Shown: positions 39,701-58,718 of the stretch, in pieces | How positions within the stretch are numbered: position 1 is the first letter of the stretch | How the letters are laid out: each line of letters starts with the position of its first letter | Translations under genes and position numbers: made by a program | Source of the DNA: Yuukianura sp. NJ FZ-2021 | Lineage: Eukaryota | Assembly (NCBI GenBank): GCA_046563655.1 | Contig: CM102289.1 | Location: 9,114,001-9,178,000 of the forward strand | Direction of reading: 5' to 3' | Length of the DNA: 64,000 bases | The notes under the pieces: generated by a model | Database searches by the model: none | Told to the model about the DNA's origin: nothing | Seen by the model: the letters and a program-made list of their open reading frames with translations, nothing else

Positions 39701-42700
39701 TTTTAAAGATTGTGACCTCATTTGACCTTTGTTGATTTTAACAAAAATGAAGCACAAAGCTTTCAGGAAAAAAAATTGGGAGGCCGTAATTAGGAAATTT
39801 ACGGTATTATGCTTTTCCAGAACGGTTCCGAGAAAAAAGTTTAGGAAAAACGGAGAAAGTAAAAGTTTTTTCCCGCTTTTTCTCGGTTTTTTCTTCAAAC
39901 TTTTTTCTCCCTTTCTTAAAGTCTATGTTCCTTGTGCCATTTCTTCTTAAAGTCTCGTATGTCAGTGCCAACTTTTCTATTGTGGACAGATGACCCCTTG
40001 ATAGGTTCAAGTGCCCCTCTTCACTCAAGTTGAACTCTGAGATGGACTTTGGAGTTGCCAGATTTAGAGTTGTGTGCCAAGGAAGGAGGTTAGCTCAGGT
40101 CTCATTTTCTACATGAATGGTCTCTTTAGTGAGACTCCAAAGCCACTTAAACTAGATTAGAAAAATTTGAAATATAAAATGGAGGCGCACAAACTTCCTG
40201 GTCAACGCCCGTAATTGAACAAAGAGAGACAAGCTCACTCAGCACAAAATTCTGGACAGATCAAAAAAGCTTTTTTGAGAGTCAAATGTCCAGTAGTGGA
40301 ACTTTTTTTGAAAACCGAAATTGAATCAGAGTGCGTGAAGTCAAAAGGGGAAAAGTTTTGCAATGAAACAAGGTAATATCCTCCCCTCCTCCTCCAAATT
40401 GCAAACAGGAAATTAATGGCAAGGAACTTATAGCTCAGCGTCTCTCGTCACAATGGAAACCATTGGAACCGTTTTCACGGTTTGCTCAAATGACTCAGAA
40501 AAGTTGTAATGGAAGTCATCATGCTACCGACGGAAAGCAAAAAAAATTTCAACTGCAATTTCAAAATTCTAAACAATTTGGAGCATAAAAAAACGCTCGG
40601 CAGAAAAAAATAAACTGAAAATTCTTTTCTTCTGCAAAAGTTGTGATTTCTATCGAAACTTTTTCTGTCGGAATTTTTGCAAATCTCGAAAAGTTTGGAG
40701 AAACTTGTGAATTTGGAAGAGATCTTTTCAAAAAACTGGAGTAAGCGTTGCACTATTTGAGCAGTGATTTGAGAAAATTGAATAGACAGGAAGGAATTGA
40801 GCCCTGGGGAAAGGTACAACGACACTCCAAAATCTGCCATAATGATCATGCAGTGCGGGAGATTTTGAAAAAAAGTAAAATTTTGCATCTTTCAAATAAC
40901 CAAAATTCAGAGAGAAAAAAACACCGTGACAAAATCAAGTCTCAACAGGAAACAGACAGACACAAAAAAAAAAGTTTCGAAACTTCACTTTCTTCAACCA
41001 AACCAAAAGTGACACAAAACTAGGGAGAGAGCATTTTTTTCTTTTCTAGAAAAAAGAGCAGGAAAATAAGAGTTTTTTGCCTTCTCTTGACTTTCTCCAT
41101 GCTTTCTTTCTGAATTCTTGAACTTTGAAGTGTGCTTTTGAAGACGGATGGAGGGTAAGAGAGGAGGACGCAATTAAGTGGCATGTCCCTCTCCTATTCA
41201 CTTTCTTAAATTGAATTAAATGTTCCCTAATGGTAATGACTTTACCAAAACTTTCTCTCTCTCCTTTCTCCAGACGACGTTCTGCACTTTTTCAAACTAA
41301 GCGCATCTTTTTTTCAAAGTTCAATGCACCATGTTGTCTCTACGTTCAAAATTTATGGCTCTCCGACCTTGTAGAATTGTCGCAACTCCGGATTTTTGTT
41401 TCTGTAATGAAAAATTTTGGATTCTGTTGCAGCAAACTGAATTTTTGAATACTCGAATTTTCATATTTCAAATTTTTAGGGGTGGGAGGTTGAGTGAAGA
41501 CAAAAATCTAAATTTTAGTAAATTTTTGGCGAAATTTTTTGAATTTGGTGTTCTTTGTTAGTTCCGCCAATGGTGAAGATTCAGCATCAACTGATTGGCT
41601 CTCCGCCTGGGTACACTGTGACACTGGAGTGTGAGACGGAAGCACATCCAGCATCACTCAACTACTGGACAAGAGAAGATGGTCACATGATCCATGACAG
41701 TAAAAAGTACAGAACTGAATCCACTGTTGGCACACCAGCTTATATTACCATCATGAGACTCACGGTGGTCAACATTGAAGTCAGGGACTACGGAATCTAC
41801 AAGTGCATCGCCAAAAATCCACGCGGAGAAACAGAAGGCTCAATACGTCTCTACGGTAAGATTCAAAAATTTCACAAAATTTGGAAAAAATTTGAATTTA
41901 GAAACTCGTTTTTTGATTTTGTTTCAGAGACGCCTTCTCCCACAACAACCCCTCCCCCAACAACAACTACTAAAATTTCTTACAAAAAGTACAAGGGTGA
42001 GTGAAAGCAAAAAAAATCAAAATTTCGAAATCAAGAAGAAGGTAGTATAATGGTAGGGATAAATTTCAAAAAGATCAAAGCCGTTTCAAACTTATTATTT
42101 CAAATTGAGCTACACTTATTTTTTGAAAAAGTGAAATCAGAAACCTTTGATTGGAAGGAAAATTCAAATGTTTAAAAAAATTCTTGTTGTGCTTTTTTGC
42201 AGATCAAAGAGAAAAGAATGATCTGTCGTCGAATTCAAGGAATCCAAGCTCGTTAGTCATCAGTTTCACTGACAAAGGTAACAAATACGAAAAAATCAAA
42301 ATGTTACACAACTTATACATATAATAATACATTTTATAATATATACTATGTGAAATTGTGCTAAAGTTCTGAAAAGTTATGTCAAGTTGAACAAATTCTA
42401 AGAGATTTATGACATAACACACAAAAGTTGCCAATAAAATTTCATAGTTGGTTAAAATCAAAAAGTTAAAAAAAATCACAACTTAAATTCCATTTAAAAT
42501 TTTGTAGACAAAATAACAAAATTGTGGAACAAAACTTTAGTTTGAAATGAAGTTGTATTCCATATTTCTCCTAATCAAAATTTGGCCCAAATTTGAGTTA
42601 GTATTTGCTTGTTGGAGCAATGGAATTGACATTTGAGGAGAAAGTTGTTCATTTTCAGCCAGGAATTTTAGTTTTGGGGTGACTTGTGGGAAAGTTGTAA

Positions 42701-44158: not shown

Positions 44159-46854
44159 ACCAAACCAAGGAATGCCTCCTACACGTCTGTCAACACAAAA
44201 AATTCTGAAAAACCAAAATTCAAAATTTTGAATTCATTCTCTTTTCAGTAATTTAAGTTTCTTTTTCCAAAATTTGAATATGGTTTTGCCCAAAACTTTA
44301 AGATTAGACAATGCCCATCGCTCAAAGTCAAAAGTATGGACAGTTTTTTTTTAAAAGAAATTTGAAATCCAAAGTTTTCTAAGTTTGAGTTTGACCTCTG
44401 CGACCTCTAGTGAACTGCTGCTGCTAAATTTAAAATGTGGCTGACGTCACTGCGGAGTGTAAAGTCAAGAAATAGCAGGGTATTTTCCTAGTGAATTTCC
44501 CATTCCCATAGACTTTAACGAACACTTAGCCTACGAAATTGAACTTTATTGTGCCCTTGTTCGCTTAGATTGACAAATTACTAATTAAGTTAAGTTAATT
44601 AAATGTAGCAAGTGTAGTATTATGCAATGCACTTAATTGTCTCAACTTAAAAACCAATTTGCACTATTTCCAGTTTAAATGCAAACCTATCACGCTGTGT
44701 GACCTTTGTTCCTACAACCAATCAGTTTTACTCAGTCGGAAAAGTTAGTTGCTGAAATCAAAAGAACTGTGGCTAACTTAATTAAATTTAAACTATGTAT
44801 TAAAATAAATAAACATAGTTAACTAAACATAAAGCTAAAGCAATTAATTAATTGTAAGAAATTCAACTGCACTGCACAACAAAACATAATTTCTAATGAG
44901 AATATTGTCAAATATTTATTACAAAAAATAAATTGAACTTTGGCAGAGGTCACTTCTAACACCTAAAACTTTTTTTTTCAGTTTGAGAATCAAATTTTCC
45001 AAAAATTGTGTTTTTTTTTACTGTCGCTGTCACTTGAGAGAAACCTCCCTCCACAGAAATTGGAAAGATTTGTCTTCTCGGTTTAAGTTTTGCTCAATCT
45101 ACTCTAATCTGACAAATCTTTTTCGCATTTTGCTCAAACTCGATCCTGTTTCAAAAAAAATTTTGGAAACTGTTTTTTGTCAGTCTGTTTCAGTTAAAGT
45201 TGGGATTTAGCAATTGTGTCGAAAAATTGCGTTCATGGAAATTAATTAAGTGCGGAGATGACTCATGAAATGGTGTTCAGAGTCTTAATTTGCCCCATTG
45301 GACAGGGATGGACGATTGGAAATTGAAAGAAAGTATATTTATTAGTTGGTGAAAGTGACGACAGAAGATTCAGTTGGAGACAATGTCCACTTATGGTCCA
45401 TCAATCCACCTTGGTCGGATTGTTCATTAGTTACTCCCTCCGCCCTTTCTCCCCTAAGAACCAAGTCCAGAAATGATCTCATTACTTCCACTCAGTCTCT
45501 CCACCATGACATCTTCTCTTCTTTTCAAATTCTACCCGCCTTTTCTCATCCCTCCGATTCGGATTTCATTCCACCGTCTCCTCTTCCCCTACCAATTATT
45601 CCCCCTCTTCCCAGCCACTAATCAACTTTTCTCTTGCCCAACACATATCCGATGCTTCACCAATACTAAGTCAAGTAAAACACTCATGTCAACATCAAAA
45701 TCTCACAAAAACTCAAAAAGTTTACAATATTTTGAAAAATTTTGAACATTTGCAACGTAATTTCCCTAAGCTTCTAGAATGGTAGCAGCGTTTGTTGTGA
45801 AAGTTTGGCAATTTTAGGATAGGTTCAGTTTTTCTGCAAATTTTGACAAATTACGAAAAATGTGAGTTCTTTTTTTTATATTTTTAGAAATTGTAACAAA
45901 AATATTTTTTTTAAAAAATACACAAGGTTTATCTTTTGATTAAAGGAGTGTCAAAAATAGAAAACTTTTAAAAGTACAGACTTTGTTTTTAGTTTTCCGG
46001 CACTTTTTTCAGTTTTTTGAACTTGGTGACAGGAAACTTGTGTTTCCAAAAAAGTTTTTGTGTCTCACCTCTTTTTGAAATTAGATTTAAGAAAGACAAA
46101 ATGAACTGTCAACAGACCGACTTTACCTCCAACCCCTTCCGCTTCAGCGTCTAAACCTCCGGTTTATTCGGATGGAAAGAAATCAAGCCTAGTGCTGAAT
46201 TAGGTCCAGCAGTGGCAGGAAACCAGGAAGAAAGGTAGAAAAACTTTTATTTTGGTATTCGGTTGATCCGCTTCGGATTTATTTGGAACTGAGGAGGGAA
46301 AAGAAAGTCCAAAGAATTCCAAATCCAGCAGAGCTCCTTTCTGAAGGATTGAAGGCACAAAATCATCAAAGTTTGACAGGAACACCAAACTACGGGAGCA
46401 GAATAAAGAAAAAGTTGGTGGATTGAGGAAAAGAGAAAGTCCACCCCCATGGCGATTCAGCACACTTTCTAACGTTAGGATTTGAGACACAAGATACCTT
46501 CTATTTTCAGTTACTTTTTGACTTCGATTGTTTCTTTTCTGGCGCGGGAAAGTTTGAAAAAGAAAAACTAAGAGAAAGTTGTGTGTCTTAAAGCCTAATG
46601 GGCTTAATGAAGCCCAGGGATTTTCTGGGTTTCTAAAAAAGAGCAGTTTGTAAGTTGCCAAATTGAACAAAGTACAAAACAAAAGAACAACAAAATTTTT
46701 ATGAAAAGAAACAGTAACAAAAACTAAAAATACTAACTAATATTTCGAAATTTGCTAGTTTTACAATAAGAATATGATGGAAACTATTAGGTTAAAGTGA
46801 ATACAAGTTTTGGCGCCATTTCTGAACAGACGATGATTTACTGACAGCTCAAAA

Positions 46855-46910
46855 ATGAAAATTATTCCCAGTGTTAACTTAAAATTTTAACAACTGCGGA
46901 ACATTTTCAT
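46855..46910 (-). ncRNA. pre-miRNA hairpin, miR-3/309/318 seed family; predicted 3p ACACUGGGAAUAAUUUUCAUUU
   Basis: Minus strand AUGAAAAUGUUCCGCAGUUG-loop-ACACUGGGAAUAAUUUUCAU folds back; seed CACUGGG; CAUC (CNNC) 18 nt 3' of the predicted mature end. Confidence 0.75.
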
Positions 46911-46989
46911 GCTCTGCTGCAGAACAGGCTGAAGAATGTTTACTTTTTGGCTGCTGTTGTTGTTTTCTGTTGAATTTCGGCGACATTTT

Positions 46990-47072
46990 TGCAAAAACAT
47001 TAGCAACTAACTACCCGGTGACATTTGCATGACGCATGCCTACCGACGCAACTAGTTACTAATTTTAGTGCA
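46990..47072 (-). ncRNA. pre-miRNA hairpin, miR-35/36 seed family, copy A; predicted 3p UCACCGGGUAGUUAGUUGCUAA (47021-47000)
   Basis: 5p arm UUAGUAACUAGUUGCGUCGGUAG pairs with the 3p arm; basal UGCA stem; CNNC (CGCC) at +18. Confidence 0.85.
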
Positions 47073-47140
47073 ATTGAAGAGCTCCTGTGCTTGAGATTCC
47101 TCCAGAAACGATGTGAAGATGATGATGCGGCGACATTTTT

Positions 47141-47221
47141 TGCAACAATATTAGCAACTAACTACCCGGTGACATTTGTAAAACATGACTACCGACGCAA
47201 GTAGTCGCTAATTTTAGTGCA
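47141..47221 (-). ncRNA. pre-miRNA hairpin, miR-35/36 seed family, copy B; predicted 3p UCACCGGGUAGUUAGUUGCUAA (47172-47151)
   Basis: Mature arm identical to copy A, different loop; 5p arm UUAGCGACUACUUGCGUCGGUAG; CNNC at +19. Confidence 0.85.
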
Positions 47222-47287
47222 ATTGAAGAATCCGTGTTGATTGACATCATTGGAGAAGAGGTGAAGATGTTGACGCGGCGACATTTT

Positions 47288-47368
47288 TGCAAAAATATGA
47301 GCAACTAAATACCCGGTGACATGCTTGAAGCTTGACTACCGACGCAAGTAGCTACTAATTTTAGTGCA
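47288..47368 (-). ncRNA. pre-miRNA hairpin, miR-35/36 seed family, copy C; predicted 3p UCACCGGGUAUUUAGUUGCUCA (47319-47298)
   Basis: Seed intact, two 3' substitutions; 5p arm UUAGUAGCUACUUGCGUCGGUAG; CNNC at +18. Confidence 0.82.
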
Positions 47369-47405
47369 ATTGGAGAAGTCCGTGTTGAATTTCTGTCAGT
47401 TTAAA

Positions 47406-47460
47406 CATGAAGATGATTCCCAGTGATAATTTGCATTAACTACTGCGGAACATCTCCATG
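47406..47460 (-). ncRNA. pre-miRNA hairpin, miR-3/309/318 seed family; predicted 3p UCACUGGGAAUCAUCUUCAUGU
   Basis: CAUGGAGAUGUUCCGCAGUAG-loop-UCACUGGGAAUCAUCUUCAUG near-perfect stem; CAAC (CNNC) at +18; paralog of the 46855-46910 hairpin. Confidence 0.82.
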
Positions 47461-47541
47461 GTCCACTGCAGAGCATGAGTTGGACACAATTGTTGACATG
47501 AGCAATTGCGGACCATCCGAAGAGGTCTTCGGTCAATGCTA

Positions 47542-47580
47542 GACTGACTGCCAAGGAAACCAAAATCCGGCAGTTTTATA
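47542..47580 (-). promoter_or_regulatory. Candidate TATA + Initiator core promoter of the miRNA cluster
   Basis: Minus-strand TATAAAA at 47580-47574; the A of GCAGTC at 47549 is 31 nt downstream, overlapping a consensus arthropod Inr TCAGTC (47547-47542). Confidence 0.6.
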
Positions 47581-49426
47581 GCCAGCAAAAGGAGTCACAA
47601 GTAAGAATTTCAAATTCTAAAATTCTACTCCTCTTTTTAAAACAATGGCAATTTTCTGGGTAAAAACAAAACCCAGGAATTAGTTTTTGAAAAATTCTAA
47701 AATTAGAAAAACTCAAACACGGAAACATACAATGCCAACAATGCAAAAGGCTTAGCCCTTTTCTTAAAAAAGCTTTTTCAAGAAACAAACAATACAACAA
47801 TGCAAAAATAAGTTTCTGAAAAGCCTGTATTTCTCAAGTTTAGTTTTTTTCTTAGAAAATTGGACATTTTCGGCTTTGCACAAGCCGAAAATAGATCCAT
47901 GAATTTTGAACAAATTCTGTCACATGAAATTCTTGTTACTTTTTTAGTTTCATTTTACCTTCATGTTTGAACTGTCGGTTTGAATTTGAACAGAAAGTAA
48001 ATGTCAACTTTTGCGGAGGGGAAATTCAGAATGTTGACAGAGATCATTCAAGGAATCATGCTTGTAACTCCCTAACTTTCTCCTACCTCAAGAAAAGTTT
48101 TCCTCAAAATTTCGGTTTTTTTTGCTTTTAATGGAAAATGTATAAAGTAAACTTTGGGTTTCCCTTGATTCCTTCCTGAAATTCCTCTCCTTCCATCATC
48201 ATCTAAAGGCAGGAGAAACTTTTAGCCTACTTTGAGAGAATACAAGATGAGGCAAGGACCATCTTCTTCCCGTTTTGCATGAGCGGACTCAATAGACAAA
48301 CCAAAGAGGGTTAACTTTACCTTTTTCAAAAAAAAAACTAAAAAACTAAAAAAAGACTCGAAAACTTAAAAAAAACTAAGGGCTCCTTCCCTTTGGAGCT
48401 TGGAAAAGGAGCCCTTAGCTTTCAAGAAGCAAAAAGTTTACAACTTTTCAGTGTATTTCAGCGTTCATTAAGCTTTTATTTCTTATGTTTTCAGTTTAAA
48501 ATTAAAACTTTTTTGTAATTGGCGTAAAACAAAGTGTAAAAAATAAGCTTTTTATGTTATTTTTTGGGAAAAAAAAAGTCTAAAAATTTTCGAAGAATAT
48601 TAAGACTATAATGACATTAGGCTAATTTGAAGGATCTTGTAAGAAGAAAGTTGTTTAATTTTGGCTTAAGTGCTCCTGTGCCCTTTGCCAAGGGCCTAAA
48701 TTGTGATTCATGATTTCGGAAAGTTGGAAGGCGAAGGGCCCCCTCTCTCCATTTAATTACTTTCTCCTCTTCTTTGGCTTCAATCCAAAACTAAAATGAA
48801 AATTTCTAAATTTCAGGACCAAAGTTCAGTTTTTCTGGTAGAGTTGACGTTGACCTGGCCTTGAACTTTTTTTTTTGAAACAGTTAGAGGCTATGTTCAA
48901 TTAGTTTTGATTTGGGATAGGACTGGGTTGTAATTTGGAAAAAGAGAAAGTTGTGTTAGGGTATGTTTAGGTTAGGTTTTGGTAGTGAATTGATGAGTGT
49001 CGGAGGAATTAAATCAGGGGGAAGGAATCAAAGGAGAAAGTTCTTTTTCAGCTCAAGTTCAAATGACAAGGGAGGGAAGAATGGGAGGCAAATTGTAATT
49101 CATTTCACGCAAGACGCCAGAGAAAGAAGGGAGAAGGGTGACCGAAGTCTCCCGGGTCACCAAAGTGACAACTTCGCTTCGCAGCATTACAAAATTCCAA
49201 CCCGGAAAACACAAAAAGAAATTTGGTGCATTGATTGTTACATAAAACGTTTTTTAACATAGTTTTTGATAAGGACGATCCTAAACATTTAAATTGTGAC
49301 AAATGTTTTGAGTTTTATTTGTTTAAGATTTTTTTAGTTTTCAAAAATATATAATGCTATTTTTTGTTTGAGGTGTGACATTTTGCTTTGCTTTTTTGCT
49401 GTTGTGTTGTGCCTTGTTTGTTTTGC

Positions 49427-52400
49427 TTATTCGTCAAAGAATTGTGCCGGTGGGGCGGGTGGGATGCTGGTACGAACTGGTGGCTCTGGTGGAGCTGCTG
49501 CTGCAGCAACCATACTTTGCTTCCGCGCAGCCAGGGATGCACTAGTAAAGTCAAAATTCAAAATTTTGAAGTCATAGATTCATAAAAACAGTGTTTTTTT
49601 CTTCCAAATTTCAAGTCTGGACTTACCGTTTATGAAGTGCGGAAATTCTGTCTTGGGGACTAATGGCAGTGTGAGACCCTCCGACATAACGGTTCACCAA
49701 ATGCATCATGTCACTTTCACTGAAATTCAAAATTATGGTTTTCAAAATATTTTGAAAATTTGAGTTTAGAAAATTTAAAAATCTTAAAAGTGATGACATA
49801 CCACAATCCCATTGATCCTCCGACGTTGTTATTTGGATCTCCAAGACCTTGGCACTCCATCTTGCAGTAGTTGCGGCCCTCGCCATCGCTAAAAATGCAG
49901 TTCAAAATTTCAAAGTTGTTTCAAAATTTTGAAGAACTGAAAGTTAAAATTTTTTTTTACTATCGAGACGTCTGTGGACGCATGCGGTAGAGTTCAAAAG
50001 CACGTTGAGAAGCCGTAGAGTGACCAGCCAGGATTGGTCCAAGGACAGGCAGCAGTGGTGCATTTGTGAGTCCAGAAATGTTGGTGTGTCGGTCACACGA
50101 GATGCAATTGTAATCTTTGAGCAATTTTTTCCTCGTGCCTGCTGGGTCAGGTTCATCCATAATCCGGGTCAAATGGTTCACTTTTTCCTCTAATTTGCCC
50201 AAATGATTTTTGAAATAAGCTCGAATTGGCGCAATTTCCACTTTGTCAAGCTTTTCTCCCAAATCTTCCCGCATTTGATCCGTAATTTCCTTCCAGAGTT
50301 CGTTTTTTCGATAAACTTCTTGCAGGAGATTGCCCAGTCGGGCTTGCAATTCGTCCATTCCGGCGCCAAATTCGTCATAAGAAACTTTCGTATTGATTTG
50401 ACCTTTGTCTGCCTTGTCAGTTAAGGCATTCATTAACATTGGTTTGGTGACGACAAGTTGCTCAAAATCGGCCAAGGCTTCGCTGATTTTCTAAAAACAA
50501 AATTTCAAAAAATTTCAAAATTTTGAATTTTTTGAATTTTGTTAAGGTAGGTTCTCACTTGTAGTTTTTCTTTCATGGCGCCATTTTCCAGAACGAGTGA
50601 ACTCAAGTTGTTGAAGATCAGCTGAACGTCATCGCCTGACAATTCTTTCATTCCTGCAATTTTACTGAACCGACCAGCATTTAGGTTGTCCAAATTAGCA
50701 GGAGAGAGGCGGTCTGAAATTGGAAATTTCAAAATTTTGAAACCCGAAAACCAAAATTTTAGTTTTCAAGATTTTTTAAAAACGGACCTAGTTTTTCAAT
50801 GGCACTGTCCGGAATCTTTTTGAGAATGGCGTCTTGCTGGACCAAACGAACAGCCATGTTTTCTTCATTGTTTTTCAAAATATTGACGGCTTCCCAAACG
50901 GTTTGCAATTTCTCAAGGACGTCAACCTCGTCAAAGACGTCAGGCATCGTTCCACGATTCTAAAATTCAAAATTCAAAATGTGAAATTTTGGATTTCGTC
51001 AAATTTTTGATTCTGAAAACCTACTTTTAGTTTTTCCCGTAGTTCTTCCAGATCTCTTGGCAGAAGCGTCATTGACGTCATTTGACGTAGCAGATTTTCT
51101 TTGGAGCTTGACAGCCCTGCAGTAGGGTAGTCCATGGACTTGACCTTTGACCTGTCACCAGGCATCCGAAGGTGATGCAAAACGTCGTCTTTGCAGGTTG
51201 GACAAACTTCTTTGCCTGGACAAACGTCTTTGCCTGGACACACTTTGCCGTCACCTTTACGGCAAACGTCAACTTTGTCCGGTTTTTGCGGGAATTGACA
51301 TACAGCTGTTCCCGCGGGAAGTCCAAAGCCAGTACACACTCCTGGTCCTAAACACTTCTCAGCGTTGAGTCCAACGGCCATGTACGGAGAAGTAGCTAAA
51401 GAAATATGAAATTTCAAAACTTTGAAAAACTTGGAATTATAAAATTTGAAAGAAACTCACTGGCATGCTGAGCAGCAATTTCTTTGAGAAGTTTTTGGTA
51501 GACGAGTTCCATTTTGTCTTGAATGTCTTCAGCCATTTGTCTCTGCATTTCTTGTAGCTGGATGTACTGATCCTGGAGCTCTTTCTGGACAACGTCAGCC
51601 TGATTTTTGCATTCCTCTTCATATCTCGGGTCCATTTTTCCTGGAACGACTTTTCCATCTTCCAGAATGGTCGGATACTTAAAATCAGTGAAAGGATCCA
51701 GTTTGGCCTCAAGTTCGTCCAGCGGAACTCCAGAAACGTCAACCGGAACATGAGAAATGCCTTGGTGACAAACAAGGTTGATTTAGCCCACATTTATACA
51801 AATGCACTAACAGGTTATACCATAACTCATTTTAAAGGAAATTATGGGGGGAAATCAAATTTTGTTATTATCGCAATTGTCATTTGATTTTGTTAAATTA
51901 AATTAAATTTTAATTTTTCTGATTACAACTTGCTAAATCTGCCGCGAAAGGCTAGTGCAGATATGGTTTTTAAAAAAAATGAAAATTTAAAAAAAAAAAG
52001 AAGTTATGGTATAATCTGTAGAAAAACCAAATTTCGATTGAAATCACCTTGGTGACGGACGTCTGGATGGGCGTCGGTCAAATTTCCCTCGTCAGGATGT
52101 TCTCCGTGACCATCTACACCCATATCCTGGGACGTTCTGCCTGTTGACCCGTCGGTCAAAAATTCTTGTGACCCCGATCCAAGGTCACCTCCAGACAGTG
52201 TCTCATATCCACCCTGTTCAATCATAACTCCGTTCTCATCGTACGTAGATTGCCGAAACGGGATTGGCTGTCCATCCGGACCAATCAGAGGCTTCTGACT
52301 TCCGACAATCCGTCTTCCGTTTTTGTCATAAAACATGGCGTTGCCTTGTTCGTCATACTGAAGCTCATGGGGACTTGAAATCCGTTTTCCATCTGCACCA

Positions 52401-54131
52401 AATACAATGGGGCGACCATCTTCGTCCATGTCCACTTCGACGACATTTCCAGCCGAATCGACCCATTCCACATTGGACACACGGCGACCATCGGCATCAA
52501 CGGCGGCTGGAATCGCTATCAGATCAAACTGCTGGACGCCCGACATTCTCTTGCCTTCAGCATTGTAGTTACCAGAGCCACGACTTTCTCTTGGCACCAA
52601 GATCTCCCCAAATGTAGCTCCTTTTGACAGGTCAGCTTGACCTACTGACTTTGCACGAGTTCCATCAGAGGTCAATGACCCCTTCTGTGACCCCGCCTGA
52701 CGCTGTTTCGCTTGGGCAGCAGATTCGGCGTCAGAGGTCACTGACCCCCGCTGTGACCCCGACGTACGCCGATCTTGACCTTCTGAGGTCAATGACCCCT
52801 TCTGCGATTGGCGTTTGGCGGCATCAGTTACGGATTGTCGCGGTTGCATGAAACTTGGTGATCTGGAGACTTCTACACCGGAAGCATCCGATAACTTCCG
52901 GATTTTCTCCATCACCTAAAATCAAATAAAAAAATGAAATTAGATGGAAGTTTTCAAAAAATTAATTTTTACAAAATTTTGATTTTTTGTTACGTAGGCT
53001 TTGATTTTTTCCAAATCCTGTTTGAGTCGAGCGAGTGACTCTGCAGTTCGTTCACATTTTTCAATACAAGGTTCCATTTGCATTGCCATGTCTGAGCTGG
53101 TTCGATTCAGTTTGTCCATGTCTTTTTGCATTCCACTGGCATTGGCACTTGCTCTCTTCACTCCTTTGAGTTGAGTCGCCATGTCCTCAATCAAGCTGGC
53201 CATCTACAAAAAAATTGACATTTGACCTTTGACCTCTGAACTTTGACCTGCTTACCTTTTGAATAGCAGCTTCAGCCGCAGCGACACGATTGTTGAGCTG
53301 AATGATCTGCCACATATCATTCACCGAGAGATGGTGATCGTCGTCTTGTTCGTGCTTTCCAGTGCCAAGCAGCGTCGAGTTGGTTGGAAGCGCGTAAAGA
53401 GCTTCAAGGTGGCGCTCCAGGCGCGCAACTTTTTGGTTCAAAGAGTCCACGGATTGTGGACCAGCAGCATCCTGGCCACTGTCAATGATGCTCTCTCTGG
53501 CATACACGGCTCCACTGCACAGAAAACCAAAAATTTTGATTAAAATTTCATTTTTTGGATTTAAAAAAAAATTTTGCAAGAACTTTGTTGTTACATGGAT
53601 TGGACTTGTGGATGCTGCCCAGTTCCGGTAGACTGACGAGAAGAAGTTGGCGCCGACTTGGGCTGAGATGGTCGCTCAGACTCTTGAGATGGTCGTCCAG
53701 ACCCTTGAAATGGTCGTCCAGACTCTTGAGATGGTCGTCCAGACCCTTGATCCAGCCGTCCAGTTCTGGGCGTCTGGGCAGGTTGCGATGCCTGAGTTCC
53801 TGGAGCATATCGAAGGACTCCGGGCATGGGCGATGCTGTTCCAGCTCCCTGAATGTAGTTCTGGAAGTTCTGGAATTCAAAAAATTTCAAGATTTTAAAA
53901 TCTCCAAGATTTAAGATGTTTTGATTCAAAATTTTGAAAATTTACTTGGATTTGATGAGCTTCGACATCGTTCAAAGTTGCCGGTTGTTCTACAATCCCT
54001 AGTTTGGCCAGAATTTCATGAAGGAGGATGCGCAGAATGTTGAAATTGACTGCGCCGACTTCTGGTGAACACAGAGCCAAGTCCACCAACTCCGTAAGGG
54101 TGAAGCCCCCACTTTGTGCTGCTTCAGTCAT
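49427..54131 (-). CDS. QRICH2/C16orf96-like DUF4795-domain coiled-coil protein (multi-exon)
   Basis: N-terminal LTELVDLALCSPEVGAVNFNILRILLHEIL; MWQIIQLNNRVAAAE; C-terminal KAD...AGTRKKLLKDYNCISCDR and RYVGGSHT motifs typical of this family; last exon ...PPAQFFDE* with stop at 49427-49429. Confidence 0.82.
53668..53760 (-). repeat. Coding 21-bp tandem repeat (Q[GE]SGRP[SF] heptapeptide) in the QRICH2-like gene
   Basis: GAGATGGTCGTCCAGAC(C/T)CTT units x~4; peptide QGSGRPSQESGRPFQGSGRPSQESERPS. Confidence 0.85.
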
Positions 54132-54505
54132 GATTACTTCGATTTCGCCTCAAGAAGTAATCGGAATCCAAAAGTTCAAAGTAATCGAGTTGCGTTTGAA
54201 AATTCAAAAATCCGAACGTCCGCTCCGAGCAACGTCTGCTTAGCAAATGAAGAAAAACCGGAACGAAAAAACCGCGTAGCAGCAACGATGAACTTCCAAA
54301 CAAAATTTGTCAAATTCAAACAAAAGCAAAATCTGGTCGCTATGGTAACCAATGCAATTTTTTCCACAATTTCTTAATTTTGTGCGAAAAGTATTTTCAC
54401 AAAACTTTCAAATGTTTTTATTGTATTCAAACTTACTCAAACTACTAACATAAAACTTCCATGACAACAAAAATTCAAATTTTTCAAAAAACTTGTTCCA
54501 AGTTT

Positions 54506-57500
54506 TTAGAAATCCAGTCGCCTTCCTAGCCACTGATTTGGAAATTTTCGAATCAGTAGACGCCGAAATTCGTCGTATATGAAAATGAAAAGTGCGAATG
54601 GAATTGCTGGTAGTAATAACCCTGGGCTGTAATTGAAACAAAAATTTTACAACATTCTTTAAAAAACCCTTACAATCAGCATTTTCAAAAAGCTTGCTTC
54701 AAAATTTTAGAAATTTTACGGAACGGCTTCGATTCGTGGTGTTTCAATGAAATGCAGAATCTGTGTCTGGACAATCACTATAGTCAGAGTCACTGGAATC
54801 ACGAGAGCCAAAATCAGCCTCCAGTTTCTACAAAAACTAAAATTGATATTTTGGAATTTTTTGAAAGTTTGGAATTTTGATTTTTGTGTAAGAATTTTAC
54901 GAAATTCCATGAACAAAAATTGATTCGCGTCGTGTTTTGCAACCAATCAAATGAGTAAGTTGTACCAAAGCCACGGCATAAAAGTAAACAGTTTGAGCTA
55001 CATCTTCTAAGTGTTTTCGCTGATCAACTGTCTATAAAATCAGAAATTCAAAAAATTCATTTTCTAAAAAAAAAATTTCAAAAAGATTGTGTTTTTTACG
55101 TACCCATTCTTGACCATGAGAATCCTCTACTACACGATCCGAGTACCACCGTTGAGAAATAAAAATCAAACGGGAAATATGAAATCCATTTTCAGACATC
55201 ACAAAAACGTATGAAAACATTGCAGCACAAAATTCAACAACTCCAACTCTGGCATAAGCTCTTTCCAGTAATCTAAAAATATTCGAAATTTCAAAATATC
55301 TCAAATAATTTTTTTTAAATATTAAAAGTTTAAATTTTAAATCACCGTCCAGTGAACAGTTTGTGTTTTCTCGAGTTTTTGCTAATGGAGTGAGCCATTA
55401 GATCCCACTCTGGTGGTTCGTATGCAAGCGCAATCGCTGGAAGCTACAAAACACAAAAGTTAGTCTGCGCAGAAACATAAATAAGTGAAGTTGGTCTGCG
55501 CAGCTTAAAATTCTGAGTTTTTACCATGTCGACTCCAATTGTGAGAACGATGATGCTGATTGGAATGATGGGAAGCGGAATGCCCAGAAACAGGAAAAGA
55601 AAGAACGGGAGAACGGCGGGAATGTTTGAAGAGATTGCAAATGCAAAACATTTTTTCATATTTTCAAAAACTAAACGTCCTTGTTCAATTCCGTTTATGA
55701 TTGGCGTCAGTGTGTTGTCCAAGATTACAATGTCGCAGATCTCCTTTGCAGCTTCCGAACTTTCCAAACCCATCGCAATGCCTAGAAATTTCAAAATTTC
55801 AAAATTTTCGTAATTTTGGAATTTGAATTTTCCCGCTCAAAATTGTACTAGTATCGGCCGCTCTCATTGCAGCACAATCGTTCATTCCATCTCCAACCAT
55901 CGTCACCAATTCACCTTGTTGCTGAAAAGTTTCAACAATTATAGCTTTCTGTTCCGGAGAAAGACGAGCAAACACGAGTTCTTCCGAGTCACGCAAAAAA
56001 GTGTGAAGCGTTTCTTCTTTCATGAGTTTTCTAAAATCGGTGTCCGTCAAAACCGATTTCAACTTTGGCTCAACACTGACAATGGTTTGGCTTTCACTTT
56101 CTCCTAGTTTCATAAAAATTAAACTTTTTAGAGAGAATACTAAAATTTTTTGTGAAATTTTGAAAAAATTTTGACCGTTGTCGTCAGTCTTTAAGATTCC
56201 AACTGCTTTAGCAATTGCTTTGGCTGTTGCTGGATGATCTCCTGTTAGCATCACAACTTTGATAGAAGCAGATCGCAATTTTGCTATAAATTCGGCAGTT
56301 CCGCTTTTTGGTGGATCCGAGAGAGACACTAATCCTAAGAATCGGTATTCCGAAACTGGATAGTTCCTTGTTGATTCACTAAAAACTGTGCCCTTGTCAT
56401 AACTGATCATTTTGTCACAAAAACCTATGAAAATTTCAGAATTTTACTTCTATAAAATAATTAAATTTTCATTGTTTTTTCTTCTGTTTTTTGCTTTTTT
56501 TTTTTTTACCAAGAACTCTGGATTGTCTTTCGGCCATTTCCTGCAACGCATCTTCCATTGCAACTTTTATGTCGGCGGTGATTGGTTGCTGTTTTCCATG
56601 AATCACAATTGTTGAACAAAGCTCAAAAATTCTCTCTGGTGCTCCCTAAAATTTTGAAATTTTCATAAAATTTAAAAATTTTATGTTTAGGTTCAGTGGC
56701 TAATCCCAATCCATCAACATACTCGTACTACAATTTGACAATTTTTTCTGTCTTGTTCCAAATAAATTGAGAGTTGATAAAAAGTTCTGTAGTTGAACGG
56801 AACTTCAAATAGTTTTTGCTCATTTGAATTCAAATCCTTAAAAGCGTGAAAGTTTAAAAAACCGAATTTTAGTAAAGCCATGTCCGCCGGCTCTCCATCT
56901 TTGACTTCGATATCTGCTTCGTGAACTCCAGTTTTCTCTACGGTTGCTTTACTTGTTAAAATGATACATCGAAGAAGATCCCGAATCTGTCAACGTTCAA
57001 ATCATATTTCAAAAGTTAAATTCAAATAAAATTTCACATTATTCCAAACTAAATTTAGACAAATACTTGAACTGTGTATACGTTGCGTTCTTTTGCATTC
57101 TCAGTTTTAATTTTTTCACTGGCAACAGTCAATTTCGTGCCATTCCAAACACAGCAAACGCTAAGCTTGTTTTCCGTCAAAGTTCCAGTTTTGTCTATGC
57201 AAAGAACAGAAGTGGATCCCAGATTTTCAATGGCGTCAAATCTTTTTGCTATGCAATTCTTAGAAGTGAGACGCTTAGCAGCACCGGAGTGACAAACCTA
57301 AAATTTTAGTTTTTAAAATCTAAAAAATTTTGTGAAAATTTACTTTAAATTGAGCGTTTACTTTGATTGCTGCAAGTAGAGATTCTGGAACAACTGCTAC
57401 GCAGACGCCAACAAAGAAGACGGTTGTGTTGGACCAAGAGTAGTCCAGGCGCATGGCAGCTACCCAACACACAATTGCAAACACAATTCCAATTGAAGTG

Positions 57501-58718
57501 AACGTAAGAATCAGTTTTGTGACGTCTTTGGACAACGGTGTTTGCTTTTCCTTCAACTGCGAAGTTATGCCAGTTATTCGACCGAGTACGGTACTGTCTC
57601 CTACGCGAATGACAATCCCACGACACGATCCTAAGTTTTTAAAATGGCGGAAATTTTGAAATTTTTTGAAAAATTGCGACAGAGTTTTAGAATTTACCCT
57701 CTACGCCATAAGTTGAGGCGTACAGCATGTTATGCGTAATCAGAGGATTAGTATGGGTGCATTCTGATGTGATTGATTTTGGTTCCGAAATTCCTGTCAA
57801 AGATGCACTGTCAACCTAAAATTCCAAACAAAAAAAATTTTTTTTTTAAATATTCAGAATTCTGAAATTTTAAAACAGTTTTCGACAAAATTTTTAGCGA
57901 AATTGTTTGGAAGAACCTTGAATCCCGCTGATTGTATCACTCTAACATCAGCAGGCACTTCGTCACCATACTTGAGGTCAACCAGGTCACCAACGACGAC
58001 ATTTTTGACATCGATGGTCGTCTTTTGTCCATTTCTGACAACTCGAGTTTTTAGCGTAACCATGGAAACAGTTTTTCGAAGAACGCTACTGGCCATTCTG
58101 TCCCGAATGTACGAAACCACTCCTGTGATTGTAATGAAAGTTACGAGAGTCAGTCCAAGGAATAGCTAAAATAAAAAAAAAATCACAAATTCACTAAATT
58201 TTGAAATTTTGAGAAAATTTATATTTTTAAAGTTACATTTTCCAAGTCAACTTTTGAGCCAACATCTCCAACGATGTCACCTAAAAAAGACATCATGCAC
58301 ACCACAGCTCCAGATACCATTAGTGAAGAAACGCCTTGCAAAATGTGCTTGACCAACCGGAAAACGATTGACGGCGGAACAGGAGGACTAATTTGATTGG
58401 TTCCGAATTTTTGGCGGTTAACTTCAACTAGTTCGTCTGTTAATCCCTGTTGAATGTAACTATTTATTAAGAATAATTAACAATTTTGTTGGAATTTGAC
58501 TAAATTTTGTTACATTTTGCTCATGCGTGTCAAATTTCTGACAAACTTCATCTACAGACATCATGTGCTCTGTTAGTCCTAGATCAACGCCCTGGCCTGG
58601 TTTCTAGTTGACAATTTTTGAAATTTTGAAATCAGCATTGAATTTTGAAATTTTGAAGAAATATCCATTATCCAATCTATTGTGAATCTTTTTGCCTCAC
58701 TTCTTTCTCTTCCTCCAT
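54506..58718 (-). CDS. Divergent Na+/K+-ATPase alpha-like (P2C-type) P-type ATPase, many short exons
   Basis: VVVGDLVDLKYGDEVPADVR, VDSASLTGISEP, VPESLL, LGSTSVLCIDKTGTLTEN, RGAPERI, DPPK, MLTGDHPATAKAIAKAVGI, VFARLSPEQKAIIVE, GDGMND, GIEQGRLVFENMKK, PAIALAYEPPE, CKTRRES, YDEFRRLLIRKFP. Start MEEEKE at 58718, stop at 54506-54508; no frameshift in the exons I translated. Confidence 0.9.

What the first reader, a model, noticed from the sequence alone, without database searches (positions are those of the whole stretch)
46855..47580. Unannotated polycistronic miRNA cluster combining miR-35/36-seed and miR-3/309-seed hairpins
Seen: an ORF-less ~600-bp segment holds five minus-strand fold-backs, in transcription order CACUGGG, CACCGGG x3, CACUGGG. 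Each has the seed at the start of the 3p arm, a variable loop, and a CNNC motif 18-19 nt past the predicted 3p end. Known: UCACCGGG is the seed of the nematode miR-35-42 / protostome miR-36 family, CACUGGG is the seed of insect miR-3/309/318, both families act in early embryos (the fly miR-309 cluster clears maternal mRNA), and CNNC is a Microprocessor-enhancing motif. Inference: a lineage-specific, recently expanded maternal-to-zygotic-transition miRNA operon whose non-seed sequences I do not recognise.
Basis: partly seen in the sequence, partly recalled or inferred. Interest (0 to 1): 0.9.

Follow-up and report, generated by a model that had tools for sequence, protein, structure and literature searches.

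The report
Springtail-like mir-3791/mir-309 microRNA gene cluster
Five neighbouring RNA hairpins look like genuine microRNA genes of two related arthropod families that are already known to sit together in clusters, so this is a plausible new example of a known kind whose expression remains untested.

Summary
Five minus-strand hairpins lie at 46841-47472 in the order CACUGGG, CACCGGG x3, CACUGGG. Each folds stably on the minus strand and less well on the plus strand. The seed starts the 3p arm, 18-22 of 22 3p bases are paired, and the basal junction lies 11-13 nt beyond the 3p end. A CNNC follows at +18/+19 in 5 of 5. Among the three middle copies the arms are conserved (0.86-0.94) and the loop and spacers are not (0.44-0.58). 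The only TATAAA-plus-Inr pair in the window lies just upstream.

The neighbouring gene matches springtail (Orchesella) proteins best, at 64-66%. The middle hairpins fit the arthropod mir-3791 (MIR-36) family; their first 11 nt equal Daphnia magna miR-3791-3p. The outer two fit mir-3/309.

Both families were already linked in print, and both seeds already occur in one Daphnia cluster. This is therefore a new member of a known kind.

All Rfam hits fall below gathering scores. Expression, processing and any role in the early embryo could not be tested. No RNA run was available.

The parts
47574..47580 (-). TATAAAA box of a putative core promoter
   Evidence: Read directly. The pattern TATAAA, 22-30 nt, [T/G/A]CAGT[C/T] occurs once in the whole window on both strands, and it is here. 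Function is inferred.
47542..47551 (-). Initiator-like GCAGTCAGTC, a putative transcription start about 70 nt upstream of the base of H1
   Evidence: The A of the first CAGT (47549) lies 31 nt after the first T of the TATA box. The arthropod Inr consensus TCAGT is recalled and was not tested.
47392..47472 (-). Hairpin H1, mir-3/309-type. Predicted 3p is 47405-47426 (UCACUGGGAAUCAUCUUCAUGU) and predicted 5p is 47437-47459.
   Evidence: MFE -34.0, z -4.71. 19 of 22 3p bases are paired and the basal junction is 13 nt beyond the 3p end. Rfam mir-2733 scores 22.9 bits, E 0.29, below the gathering score of 72.9.
47287..47369 (-). Hairpin H2, mir-3791/MIR-36-type. Predicted 3p is 47298-47319 (UCACCGGGUAUUUAGUUGCUCA) and predicted 5p is 47333-47356.
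   Evidence: MFE -27.3, z -3.42. 18 of 22 paired, 11 nt to the junction. Rfam mir-2733 scores 29.9 bits and mir-36 20.8 bits, both below gathering.
47140..47222 (-). Hairpin H3, mir-3791/MIR-36-type. Predicted 3p is 47151-47172 (UCACCGGGUAGUUAGUUGCUAA) and predicted 5p is 47186-47209.
   Evidence: MFE -31.5, z -4.34. 20 of 22 paired, 11 nt to the junction. Rfam mir-2733 scores 40.6 bits (E 2.7e-06) and mir-36 22.3 bits, both below gathering.
46989..47073 (-). Hairpin H4, mir-3791/MIR-36-type. Predicted 3p is 47000-47021, identical to the H3 3p. Predicted 5p is 47037-47060.
   Evidence: MFE -34.5, z -4.56. 22 of 22 paired, 11 nt to the junction. Rfam mir-2733 scores 40.1 bits, below gathering.
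46841..46922 (-). Hairpin H5, mir-3/309-type. Predicted 3p is 46853-46874 (ACACUGGGAAUAAUUUUCAUUU) and predicted 5p is 46888-46910.
   Evidence: MFE -28.2, z -3.08. 20 of 22 paired, 12 nt to the junction. 3 of 32 pairs are kept through changes on both sides relative to H1. No Rfam hit at E <= 10.
46832..47387 (-). Five CNNC motifs, one after each hairpin: 47384-47387 CAAC, 47277-47280 CGCC, 47129-47132 CGCC, 46979-46982 CGCC, 46832-46835 CAUC.
   Evidence: the motif begins +18 or +19 after a 22-nt 3p in 5 of 5 hairpins. The 3' flank up to the motif is 100% identical among H2-H4. Position range for the motif (16-21 nt) is taken from PMC9976908.
46163..46283 (-). Three AATAAA hexamers (starting at 46283, 46251 and 46168 on the minus strand), candidate poly(A) signals 560-680 nt after H5
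   Evidence: Their use is inferred only.

Best explanation
This is a polycistronic microRNA gene of an arthropod, probably a springtail or another early-branching hexapod. RNA polymerase II would start at the TATA/Inr pair near 47549 on the minus strand and read through five about 82-nt hairpins to poly(A) signals near 46250, giving a primary transcript of about 1.3 kb. Drosha/Pasha would cut each hairpin 11-13 bp above its basal junction, helped by the CNNC 18-19 nt downstream. Dicer would then remove the 10-15-nt loop. The 3p strands would be loaded into Argonaute: UCACCGGG... from H2-H4, and U/ACACUGGG... from H1 and H5. H2-H4 are tandem duplicates (period 147-151 bp) of a mir-3791 (MIR-36) family gene. 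H1 and H5 are a diverged pair of mir-3/309-type genes that flank them. Because the two seeds differ at one base, the five products would repress largely neighbouring sets of mRNAs carrying CCCGGUG or CCCAGUG sites. By analogy with related clusters in fly, beetle, bee and nematode, the most likely setting is the germline or early embryo.

Shown here: the hairpin anatomy, the strand bias, the conservation profile, the motifs and the seed identity.

Inferred: transcription, processing, arm choice, targets and timing.
For: - Structure: 5 of 5 minus-strand hairpins have z -3.1 to -4.7. The plus strand is weaker in all five because of 2-6 G:U pairs per hairpin. That argues for selection on an RNA made from the minus strand and against a DNA palindrome.
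- Geometry: 18-22 of 22 3p bases are paired, loops are 10-15 nt, and the basal junction lies 11-13 nt beyond the 3p end. This matches the lower stem of about 13 bp described for non-nematode animals (PMC9976908 passages).
- CNNC begins at +18/+19 in 5 of 5.
- Conservation profile among H2-H4: spacers 0.53 and 0.44, loop 0.58, 5p 0.86, 3p 0.94, 5' lower stem 1.00, 3' flank to CNNC 1.00.
- Pair changes: one-sided changes in H2-H4 keep pairing at 3 pairs. H1 versus H5 keeps 3 of 32 pairs through double changes.
- Family: Rfam's best hits are miRNA families carrying this seed. mir-2733 scores 40.6, 40.1, 29.9 and 22.9 bits; mir-36 scores 22.3 and 20.8 bits.
- The H3/H4 3p shares its first 11 nt, and 13 of 22 overall, with Daphnia magna miR-3791-3p. 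Daphnia also has a UCACUGGG hairpin about 600 nt away on the same strand (supplement passages).
- Promoter: the only TATAAA+Inr arrangement in 128 kb of strand sits directly upstream.
- Taxon: the neighbouring DUF4795 gene has 4 hits. The two that carry a name are both Orchesella, at 64% identity.
Against: - No small-RNA or RNA-seq evidence exists here; the 4 runs found are all DNA contigs.
- Every Rfam hit is below its gathering score, and H5 has no hit at all.
- The paralog comparison rests on only 3 and 2 recently duplicated copies. Part of the 'conservation' may simply be youth. 5 of 34 pairs are broken in one copy, and no pair among H2-H4 shows a double change.
- Hairpins this stable are common in the window.
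- No relative was found outside the genome: 0 hits in two metagenome scans.
- No TAGteam-like site lies near the cluster.
- None of the other families of the insect mir-309 cluster is present. The embryonic role therefore has no support from this sequence.
- The taxon rests on a single exon.
Confidence: 0.72

Rival explanations
1. These are real miRNA genes, but the seeds arose by convergence. The hairpins would be lineage-specific inventions that drifted onto CACCGGG/CACUGGG, and not descendants of MIR-36/mir-3791 and mir-3/309.
For: - Beyond the seed, similarity to known members is low. 13 of 22 nt match Daphnia miR-3791-3p, and only the first 8 match Daphnia miR-309-3p.
- Rfam scores are below gathering.
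- MAFFT cannot align the two hairpin types to each other.
- Ninova et al. [quoted passage not shown]
Against: - The match to Daphnia miR-3791-3p extends three bases past the 8-mer (UCACCGGGUAG).
- In both cases the seed is on the 3p arm.
- Both seeds are clustered, as in Daphnia and Hymenoptera.
- The mir-2733 model aligns end to end (positions 1-81 of 81) with E 2.7e-06 and 3.6e-06.
Confidence: 0.15
2. This is a moderately repeated genomic unit (a segmental or transposon-borne tandem repeat) whose internal inverted repeats merely look like pre-miRNAs and yield no functional small RNA.
For: - Summed contig depth over about 46836-47900 is 2-8 times that of the flanks in X1 and X2 (X1: 104-319 against 36-39; X2: 414-1719 against 219).
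- Many variant contigs join the units in other orders or carry other flanks (tables 2, 5, 7). The units therefore exist in further copies.
- The middle three are a 147-151-bp tandem repeat.
Against: - The excess is a few-fold, not hundreds-fold, and part of it is cross-mapping among the window's own 3+2 copies at the 80% threshold used.
- A DNA-level palindrome would fold equally on both strands, and these do not.
- Loops and spacers diverge while arms, lower stems and the CNNC flank are kept.
- Paralogous hairpins with unrelated flanks occur in both organism A and organism B (table 7). That is what a selected miRNA family looks like.
- Multi-copy expansion is typical of this very family: 34 mir-3791 copies in a spider.
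Confidence: 0.08
3. The hairpins are real miRNAs but are processed from read-through or an extended 3' UTR of the upstream DUF4795/QRICH2-like gene (49960-54149, minus strand). They would then follow that gene's expression (in other animals a sperm-flagellum gene; recalled) and not an embryonic programme.
For: The orientation is the same. The cluster begins 2.4 kb downstream of that gene's stop codon. No expression data exist.
Against: On the minus strand, AATAAA/ATTAAA hexamers lie between the gene and the cluster (49319, 48757, 48659, 48480, 48132). A TATA+Inr pair lies directly before H1.
Confidence: 0.05

Closest known systems
Daphnia magna cluster on scaffold sc2190, minus strand: mir-2944, 'nov-12' and mir-3791 (Coucheron et al. 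2019, PMC6828783; supplement passages seen)
   Same: - A UCACUGGG-3p hairpin (nov-12, 1745310-1745371) and a UCACCGGG-3p hairpin (mir-3791, 1744660-1744720) lie on one strand within about 700 nt.
- The mature strand is 3p-dominant.
- miR-3791-3p shares UCACCGGGUAG with H3/H4.
   Different: - Daphnia has one copy of each type plus a K-box gene (mir-2944). The window has 3+2 copies and no K-box hairpin.
- The sequence beyond nt 11 differs.
Insect mir-309~6 / mir-9d~3791 / mir-3791~... clusters (Drosophila, Tribolium, Hymenoptera; Ninova 2016 PMC4691753 and Mohammed 2014 PMC4238352; passages seen)
   Same: - Polycistronic, fast-evolving, with 3p seeds CACUGG/CACCGG.
- In Hymenoptera the two mir-3-family genes sit at opposite ends of the cluster, as H1 and H5 do here.
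[quoted passage not shown]
   Different: - Those clusters also hold mir-279/286, Brd-box (mir-9/4) and K-box (mir-2944/5/6) members. None was found in this window.
- Early-embryo expression is shown for them and not for this locus.
Parasteatoda tepidariorum mir-3791 expansion (Leite et al. 2016, PMC4987109; passages seen)
   Same: Lineage-specific tandem multiplication of mir-3791 (34 copies, 13 of them within 50 kb), mostly 3p-dominant.
   Different: It is a chelicerate with a much larger array. No mir-309-type members are reported in the passages read.
C. elegans mir-35-41 cluster (mentioned; its seed and embryonic role are recalled)
   Same: A tandem array of hairpins with the UCACCGGG seed on the 3p arm in one transcript.
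   Different: - Nematode pri-miRNAs lack CNNC and have longer lower stems of about 16 bp (PMC9976908). These hairpins have CNNC and 11-13 nt.
- Rfam mir-36 scores only 22.3 and 20.8 bits against a gathering score of 48.
Rfam RF04275 mir-2733 (clan CL00142)
   Same: It is the best-scoring covariance model. Alignments run end to end over model positions 1-81 for H1-H4, and the model's 3p consensus begins UCACUGGgU.
   Different: Scores of 22.9-40.6 bits are well under the gathering score of 72.9. H5 is not hit. The three best-scoring hairpins carry C, not U, at seed position 5.

Membership tests
Canonical animal miRNA gene (MirGeneDB-style criteria; recalled) | Imperfect hairpin with at least 16 paired bases between the two arms and a loop of at least about 8 nt | tested here: met
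   18-22 of 22 3p bases are paired and loops are 10-15 nt in 5 of 5 hairpins.
Canonical animal miRNA gene (MirGeneDB-style criteria; recalled) | Reads of 20-26 nt from both arms with 2-nt 3' offsets and homogeneous 5' ends | not testable with these tools
   No RNA run holds the stretch; the 4 runs found are DNA contigs.
Canonical animal miRNA gene (Microprocessor substrate features, non-nematode) | Lower stem of about 11-13 bp and a CNNC 16-21 nt beyond the 3p cut | tested here: met
   11-13 nt to the basal junction. CNNC at +18/+19 in 5 of 5. Ranges are taken from PMC9976908.
mir-3791 / MIR-36 family (H2-H4) | UCACCGGG at positions 1-8 of the 3p arm | tested here: met
   3 of 3 hairpins. Identical to Daphnia magna miR-3791-3p over nt 1-11.
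mir-3791 / MIR-36 family (H2-H4) | Score at or above the curated threshold of a family covariance model (Rfam mir-36 RF00685, gathering score 48) | tested here: not met
   22.3 bits (H3) and 20.8 bits (H2). No separate mir-36 row was listed for H4. 0 gathering-level hits in the whole window. No mir-3791 model appeared in the output.
mir-3/309/318 family (H1, H5) | CACUGGG at positions 2-8 of the 3p arm | tested here: met
   2 of 2 hairpins. H5 begins with A instead of U.
mir-3/309/318 family (H1, H5) | Similarity beyond the seed, or a covariance-model score above threshold | tested here: not met
   H1 scores 22.9 bits on mir-2733 (gathering 72.9, E 0.29) and H5 has no hit. Only nt 1-8 are shared with Daphnia miR-309-3p.
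Insect mir-309~6-type early-embryonic cluster | Co-clustering with mir-279/286, Brd-box (mir-9/4) and K-box (mir-2944/5/6) members | tested here: not met
   No such seed lies in a single-stem hairpin within 10 kb. No Rfam hit to those families at E <= 1 in 30000-64000.
Insect mir-309~6-type early-embryonic cluster | Sharp expression in the early embryo or oocyte, and target-site enrichment in cleared maternal mRNAs | not testable with these tools
   There are no RNA data and no transcriptome. YAGGTAR sites are not enriched (13 against 14.9 expected), and none lies between 43693 and 62022.

The most novel reading that the evidence does not exclude
The locus is a living intermediate in the assembly of the insect early-embryonic mir-309 cluster. 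It would be a 'pure' mir-3/36-superfamily operon in an early-branching hexapod, in which a UCACCGGG gene and its UCACUGGG derivative coexist. The seed C-to-U change is matched by G-to-A on the 5p arm (...CGUCGGUAGUCA against ...CG-CAGUAGUUA). The whole 1.1-kb promoter-plus-hairpins unit would have been copied several times in the genome. It would act as a springtail counterpart of miR-430 / mir-309 / mir-35 in clearing maternal mRNA. That would push this role of the superfamily back to the base of Hexapoda or beyond.
Probability: 0.25. Interest if true: 0.55.

Novelty: new member of a known kind. Interest (0 to 1): 0.33.

Why it matters
Mohammed et al. 2014 wrote that they lacked intermediates for the stepwise assembly of the mir-309 cluster, and that more early-branching arthropods might supply them. 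A springtail-grade cluster that holds only mir-3791-type and mir-309-type hairpins, with its own promoter and signs of further copies, would be a useful data point for three questions:
- how seed families split by a compensated one-base shift;
- how early-embryonic miRNA operons were built;
- how far back the CACCGGG/CACUGGG embryonic programme goes.

In my searches I met no experimental small-RNA catalogue for Collembola. One search returned a single paper (PMC10181208), and its only occurrence of 'small RNA sequencing' was in its reference list. Another returned one homology-based survey that mentions Collembola only when describing its phylogenetic tree. In itself, the locus is an expected kind of gene for an arthropod.

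Tried and rejected
- Whole genome: none is held, so copy number and other clusters could not be counted directly.
- Sequencing runs: no RNA holder is listed. Only 4 DNA contig runs from 2 studies were found, so expression could not be examined.
- Laying the contigs: they could not be used for a clean test of cross-species conservation. Contigs of paralogous copies map to the cluster at the 80% threshold, and 161 differences were not shown.
- Two scans of metagenome contigs gave 0 hits each: the 20-nt 3p pattern and a two-arm gapped pattern.
- Earlier findings of this scan: nothing for this genome or sequence. The two word hits were unrelated.
- Full-text search for the five predicted mature strings: 0 papers.
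- Taxon check with a second exon (P-type ATPase-like, 57323-57700): no hit at E <= 0.001 among 236 candidates. The Atlas look-up only confirmed DUF4795/QRICH2.
- Zelda/TAGteam idea: YAGGTAR occurs 13 times against 14.9 expected, with none near the cluster.
- Other members of the insect mir-309 cluster (K-box, mir-279, Brd-box, AGUACG/AGUACA seeds): no credible hairpin near the cluster and no Rfam hit.
- Joint alignment of all five hairpins: MAFFT misaligned the two types, so I built no joint covariance model.
- Weak plus-strand Rfam hits over the cluster (plasmodium_snoR27 21.9 bits, TtnuCD8 20.5 bits; E 5-9) were treated as noise.
- I did not align the Daphnia precursors by tool, because that would have meant typing sequence held in no window or locus. 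The comparison of mature strands was made by eye.
- Supplemental Fig. 6 of Mohammed et al. 2014 (the mir-3/3791/36 alignment) and the supplements of Leite et al. 2016 were not opened. They may bear on family membership.
Full report
**What is in the sequence**

The minus strand of 46832-47580 holds five fold-backs. I call them H1 (47392-47472), H2 (47287-47369), H3 (47140-47222), H4 (46989-47073) and H5 (46841-46922). The 9-mer CACYGGGWA occurs five times in the 64-kb window, only here and only on this strand, in the order T, C, C, C, T. Shuffles give 0.93 on average, and 0 of 100 reach five. The bare 7-mer is not enriched window-wide: 6 against 4.81 expected. The signal is therefore the clustering and the fixed position in the hairpins, not the word count. 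No stop-to-stop ORF of 70 aa or more lies inside 46737-47575.

**Are the hairpins real and strand-specific?**

All five minus-strand segments fold into one long stem. MFE is -27.3 to -34.5 kcal/mol and z is -3.08 to -4.71. At most 1 of 200 shuffles does as well. The same DNA read from the plus strand folds worse in every case: -17.5 to -28.5 kcal/mol, with z of 0.07, -1.58 and -1.77 for the three middle units. The difference comes from 2-6 G:U pairs per hairpin. Such pairs become A-C mismatches on the other strand. This points to an RNA made from the minus strand and not to a DNA palindrome or transposon terminus.

Stability alone is not distinctive. A sliding scan of 25,560 windows found many other places with MFE <= -27 and a single stem, and H2 did not even pass that filter.

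**Processing geometry**

- 18-22 of 22 bases are paired.
- The loop between the predicted arms is 10-15 nt.
- The basal junction lies 11-13 nt beyond the 3p end.
- A CNNC begins 18 or 19 nt beyond the 3p end in 5 of 5 hairpins.

Passages of Nguyen et al. 2023 (PMC9976908) give 16-21 nt as the range scanned for CNNC and about 13 bp as the lower stem of non-nematode animals. They also state that CNNC is conserved from flies to humans but absent in C. elegans. The hairpins therefore have arthropod/vertebrate-type features and not nematode-type ones.

**Conservation profile**

H2-H4 are tandem copies with periods of 147 and 151 bp. Mean pairwise identity by region:

| Region | Identity |
|---|---|
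| Upstream spacer | 0.53 |
| 5' lower stem | 1.00 |
| 5p arm | 0.86 |
| Loop | 0.58 |
| 3p arm | 0.94 |
| 3' lower stem | 0.81 |
| 3' flank up to CNNC | 1.00 |
| Remaining spacer | 0.44 |

This is the pattern expected of miRNA genes: arms conserved, loop and spacers free.

In the RNAalifold consensus of H2-H4, 0 of 34 pairs show a double change. Three pairs show one-sided changes that keep pairing. Five pairs are broken in one copy. Between H1 and H5, 3 of 32 pairs are kept through changes on both sides. With only three and two young paralogs this evidence is suggestive, not strong.

**Transcription unit (inferred)**

TATAAAA lies at 47580-47574. GCAGTCAGTC lies at 47551-47542, so the first CAGT has its A 31 nt after the first T of the TATA box. 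The combination TATAAA, 22-30 nt, [T/G/A]CAGT[C/T] occurs once in both strands of the window, and it is here. On the minus strand AATAAA follows at 46283, 46251 and 46168. Other AATAAA/ATTAAA hexamers lie between the upstream gene and the cluster. I read this as an independent transcript of about 1.3 kb. No expression data exist to confirm it.

**Organism and neighbourhood**

GC content is 34-47% across the window, mostly about 36%. Exons are separated by short gaps. Upstream on the same strand, at 49960-54149, lies a DUF4795 / glutamine-rich-protein-2-like gene (Pfam E 6e-31; Atlas). Its last exon has four database relatives at 64-66% identity. The two that carry a name are both from the springtail genus Orchesella. 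A second exon gave no hits. I therefore take the window to come from a springtail-like hexapod whose proteome is not in the database. This rests on one exon.

**Family assignment**

An E-value scan against Rfam gives mir-2733 (RF04275, clan CL00142) at 40.6, 40.1, 29.9 and 22.9 bits for H3, H4, H2 and H1. It gives mir-36 (RF00685) at 22.3 and 20.8 bits for H3 and H2. H5 has no hit. All scores are below the gathering scores of 72.9 and 48. The gathering-level scan of the whole window is empty.

The literature adds the following.
- Ylla et al. 2016 (PMC5121899; passages) treat MIR-36 as a protostome family and MIR-309 as a pancrustacean family.
- Leite et al. 2016 (PMC4987109; passages) describe mir-3791 in spiders, horseshoe crab, Tribolium and Apis as similar to the C. 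elegans mir-35-41 cluster. The spider has 34 copies.
- The supplement of Coucheron et al. 2019 on Daphnia magna (PMC6828783; passages) prints miR-3791-3p as UCACCGGGUAGAAUUCAUCCAG. The H3/H4 3p (UCACCGGGUAGUUAGUUGCUAA) matches its first 11 nt and 13 of 22 overall, by my own comparison by eye.

H1 and H5 share only the 8-mer with Daphnia miR-309-3p. The seed and arm criteria for both families are met. The covariance-model criterion is not.

**Is the combination new?**

No.
- Mohammed et al. [quoted passage not shown] They also write that in Hymenoptera the two mir-3-family genes sit at opposite ends of the proto-mir-309 cluster.
- Ninova et al. 2016 (PMC4691753; passages) describe the Tribolium mir-9d~3791 cluster as the homologue of fly mir-309~6. 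They show early-embryonic expression and CACUGG target enrichment among cleared maternal mRNAs.
- The Daphnia supplement places three genes on scaffold sc2190, minus strand: mir-2944 (1745587-1745679), 'nov-12' with a 3p beginning UCACUGGG (1745310-1745371), and mir-3791 (1744660-1744720). Both seeds in one short cluster are thus already on record for a crustacean.

What differs here is the make-up. There are three mir-3791-type copies flanked by two mir-309-type copies. There is no K-box, mir-279 or Brd-box partner in the window.

**Relation between the two hairpin types**

MAFFT cannot align them as wholes. Near the loop they look alike. The 5p ends read ...CGUCGGUAGUCA (H2, H3) and ...CGCAGUAGUUA (H1, H5). 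The 3p starts read UCACCGGG and U/ACACUGGG. The C/U difference in the seed is thus matched by G/A on the other arm. Much of this likeness follows automatically from complementarity to similar seeds, so it is only a hint of common descent.

**Copy number**

When public DNA contigs were laid on 46300-48300 at 80% likeness, summed depth over about 46836-47900 was 2-8 times that of the flanks. In X1 it was 104-319 against 36-39. In X2 it was 414-1719 against 219. Many contigs joined the units in other orders or ran into unrelated sequence next to a hairpin. One such contig is seen in both organism A and organism B (tables 2, 5, 7). Part of the excess is cross-mapping among the window's own copies. 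The rest indicates a few more copies of the hairpins, and perhaps of the whole promoter-plus-cluster unit, elsewhere in the genome. This is far from satellite-like copy number. It fits the expansions known for this family.

**Function**

The mechanism I commit to is ordinary miRNA biogenesis and seed-based repression by the 3p strands. The developmental setting (germline or early embryo, clearing maternal mRNA) is an analogy to fly, beetle, bee and nematode relatives. I give it roughly even odds. Nothing in the sequence supports it directly. TAGteam-like heptamers are not enriched (13 against 14.9 expected), and none lies between 43693 and 62022.

**What could not be done**

- No genome is held.
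- No RNA run was available.
- Two metagenome scans found no relatives.
- A full-text search for the predicted mature strings found no paper.
- Searches for springtail small-RNA work returned one paper (PMC10181208), whose only occurrence of 'small RNA sequencing' was in its reference list, and one homology-based survey of 152 arthropods that mentions Collembola only when describing its phylogenetic tree (PMC8126727).

**Verdict**

- The identification as a mixed MIR-36/mir-3791 plus mir-3/309 miRNA cluster is well supported by anatomy and by comparison with printed sequences.
- The claim of novelty for the combination is not supported.
- The embryonic role is untested.
- It is a probable new member of a known kind, of moderate interest for the evolution of arthropod early-embryonic miRNA clusters.

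Noticed in passing
window 49960-54149 (-): A multi-exon gene with a DUF4795 domain (Pfam E 6e-31), like glutamine-rich protein 2 (QRICH2). Its best named relatives are Orchesella springtail proteins at 64% identity. It includes a 303-aa low-complexity Ser/Gly/Gln-rich exon at 52007-52915 with no Pfam hit.
   Followed up: partly
window 46684-46838: A 155-bp stretch just downstream of H5 looks like an insertion/deletion variant. One X1 contig joins 46683 to 46839, and X2, X3 and X4 show no depth over 46702-46835. Another X1 contig covers it exactly.
   Followed up: no
window 48371-48423, also about 47745-47762, 47867-47890, 47655-47676 and 46610-46640: Short G+C-rich palindromes flanked by A/T runs recur around the cluster. 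The strongest (48371-48423) folds on both strands (MFE -36.1 for 48341-48440) and gives weak MIR319 hits on both strands (24.1 and 23.4 bits, gathering 54). It may be a small dispersed inverted-repeat element or a terminator-like structure.
   Followed up: no
window 46836-47900: Summed contig depth is raised over the hairpins and also over the putative promoter and about 300 bp upstream (X1: 117-156 against 36-39 in the flanks). This suggests that the whole transcription unit exists in several diverged copies.
   Followed up: partly
window 41543-41860 (+) and 55447-57700 (-): An immunoglobulin I-set domain exon (Pfam E 1.7e-09 to 4.3e-10) lies on the plus strand. Exons of a divergent P-type ATPase-like gene (HAD hydrolase domain, E 5.8e-18) lie on the minus strand. 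One ATPase-like exon (57323-57700) found no relatives in the word-based protein search.
   Followed up: no
window 5247-5400 (+): An exon encoding an RRM-like segment ([40 protein letters not shown]), seen in the ORF listing. It was not analysed.
   Followed up: no
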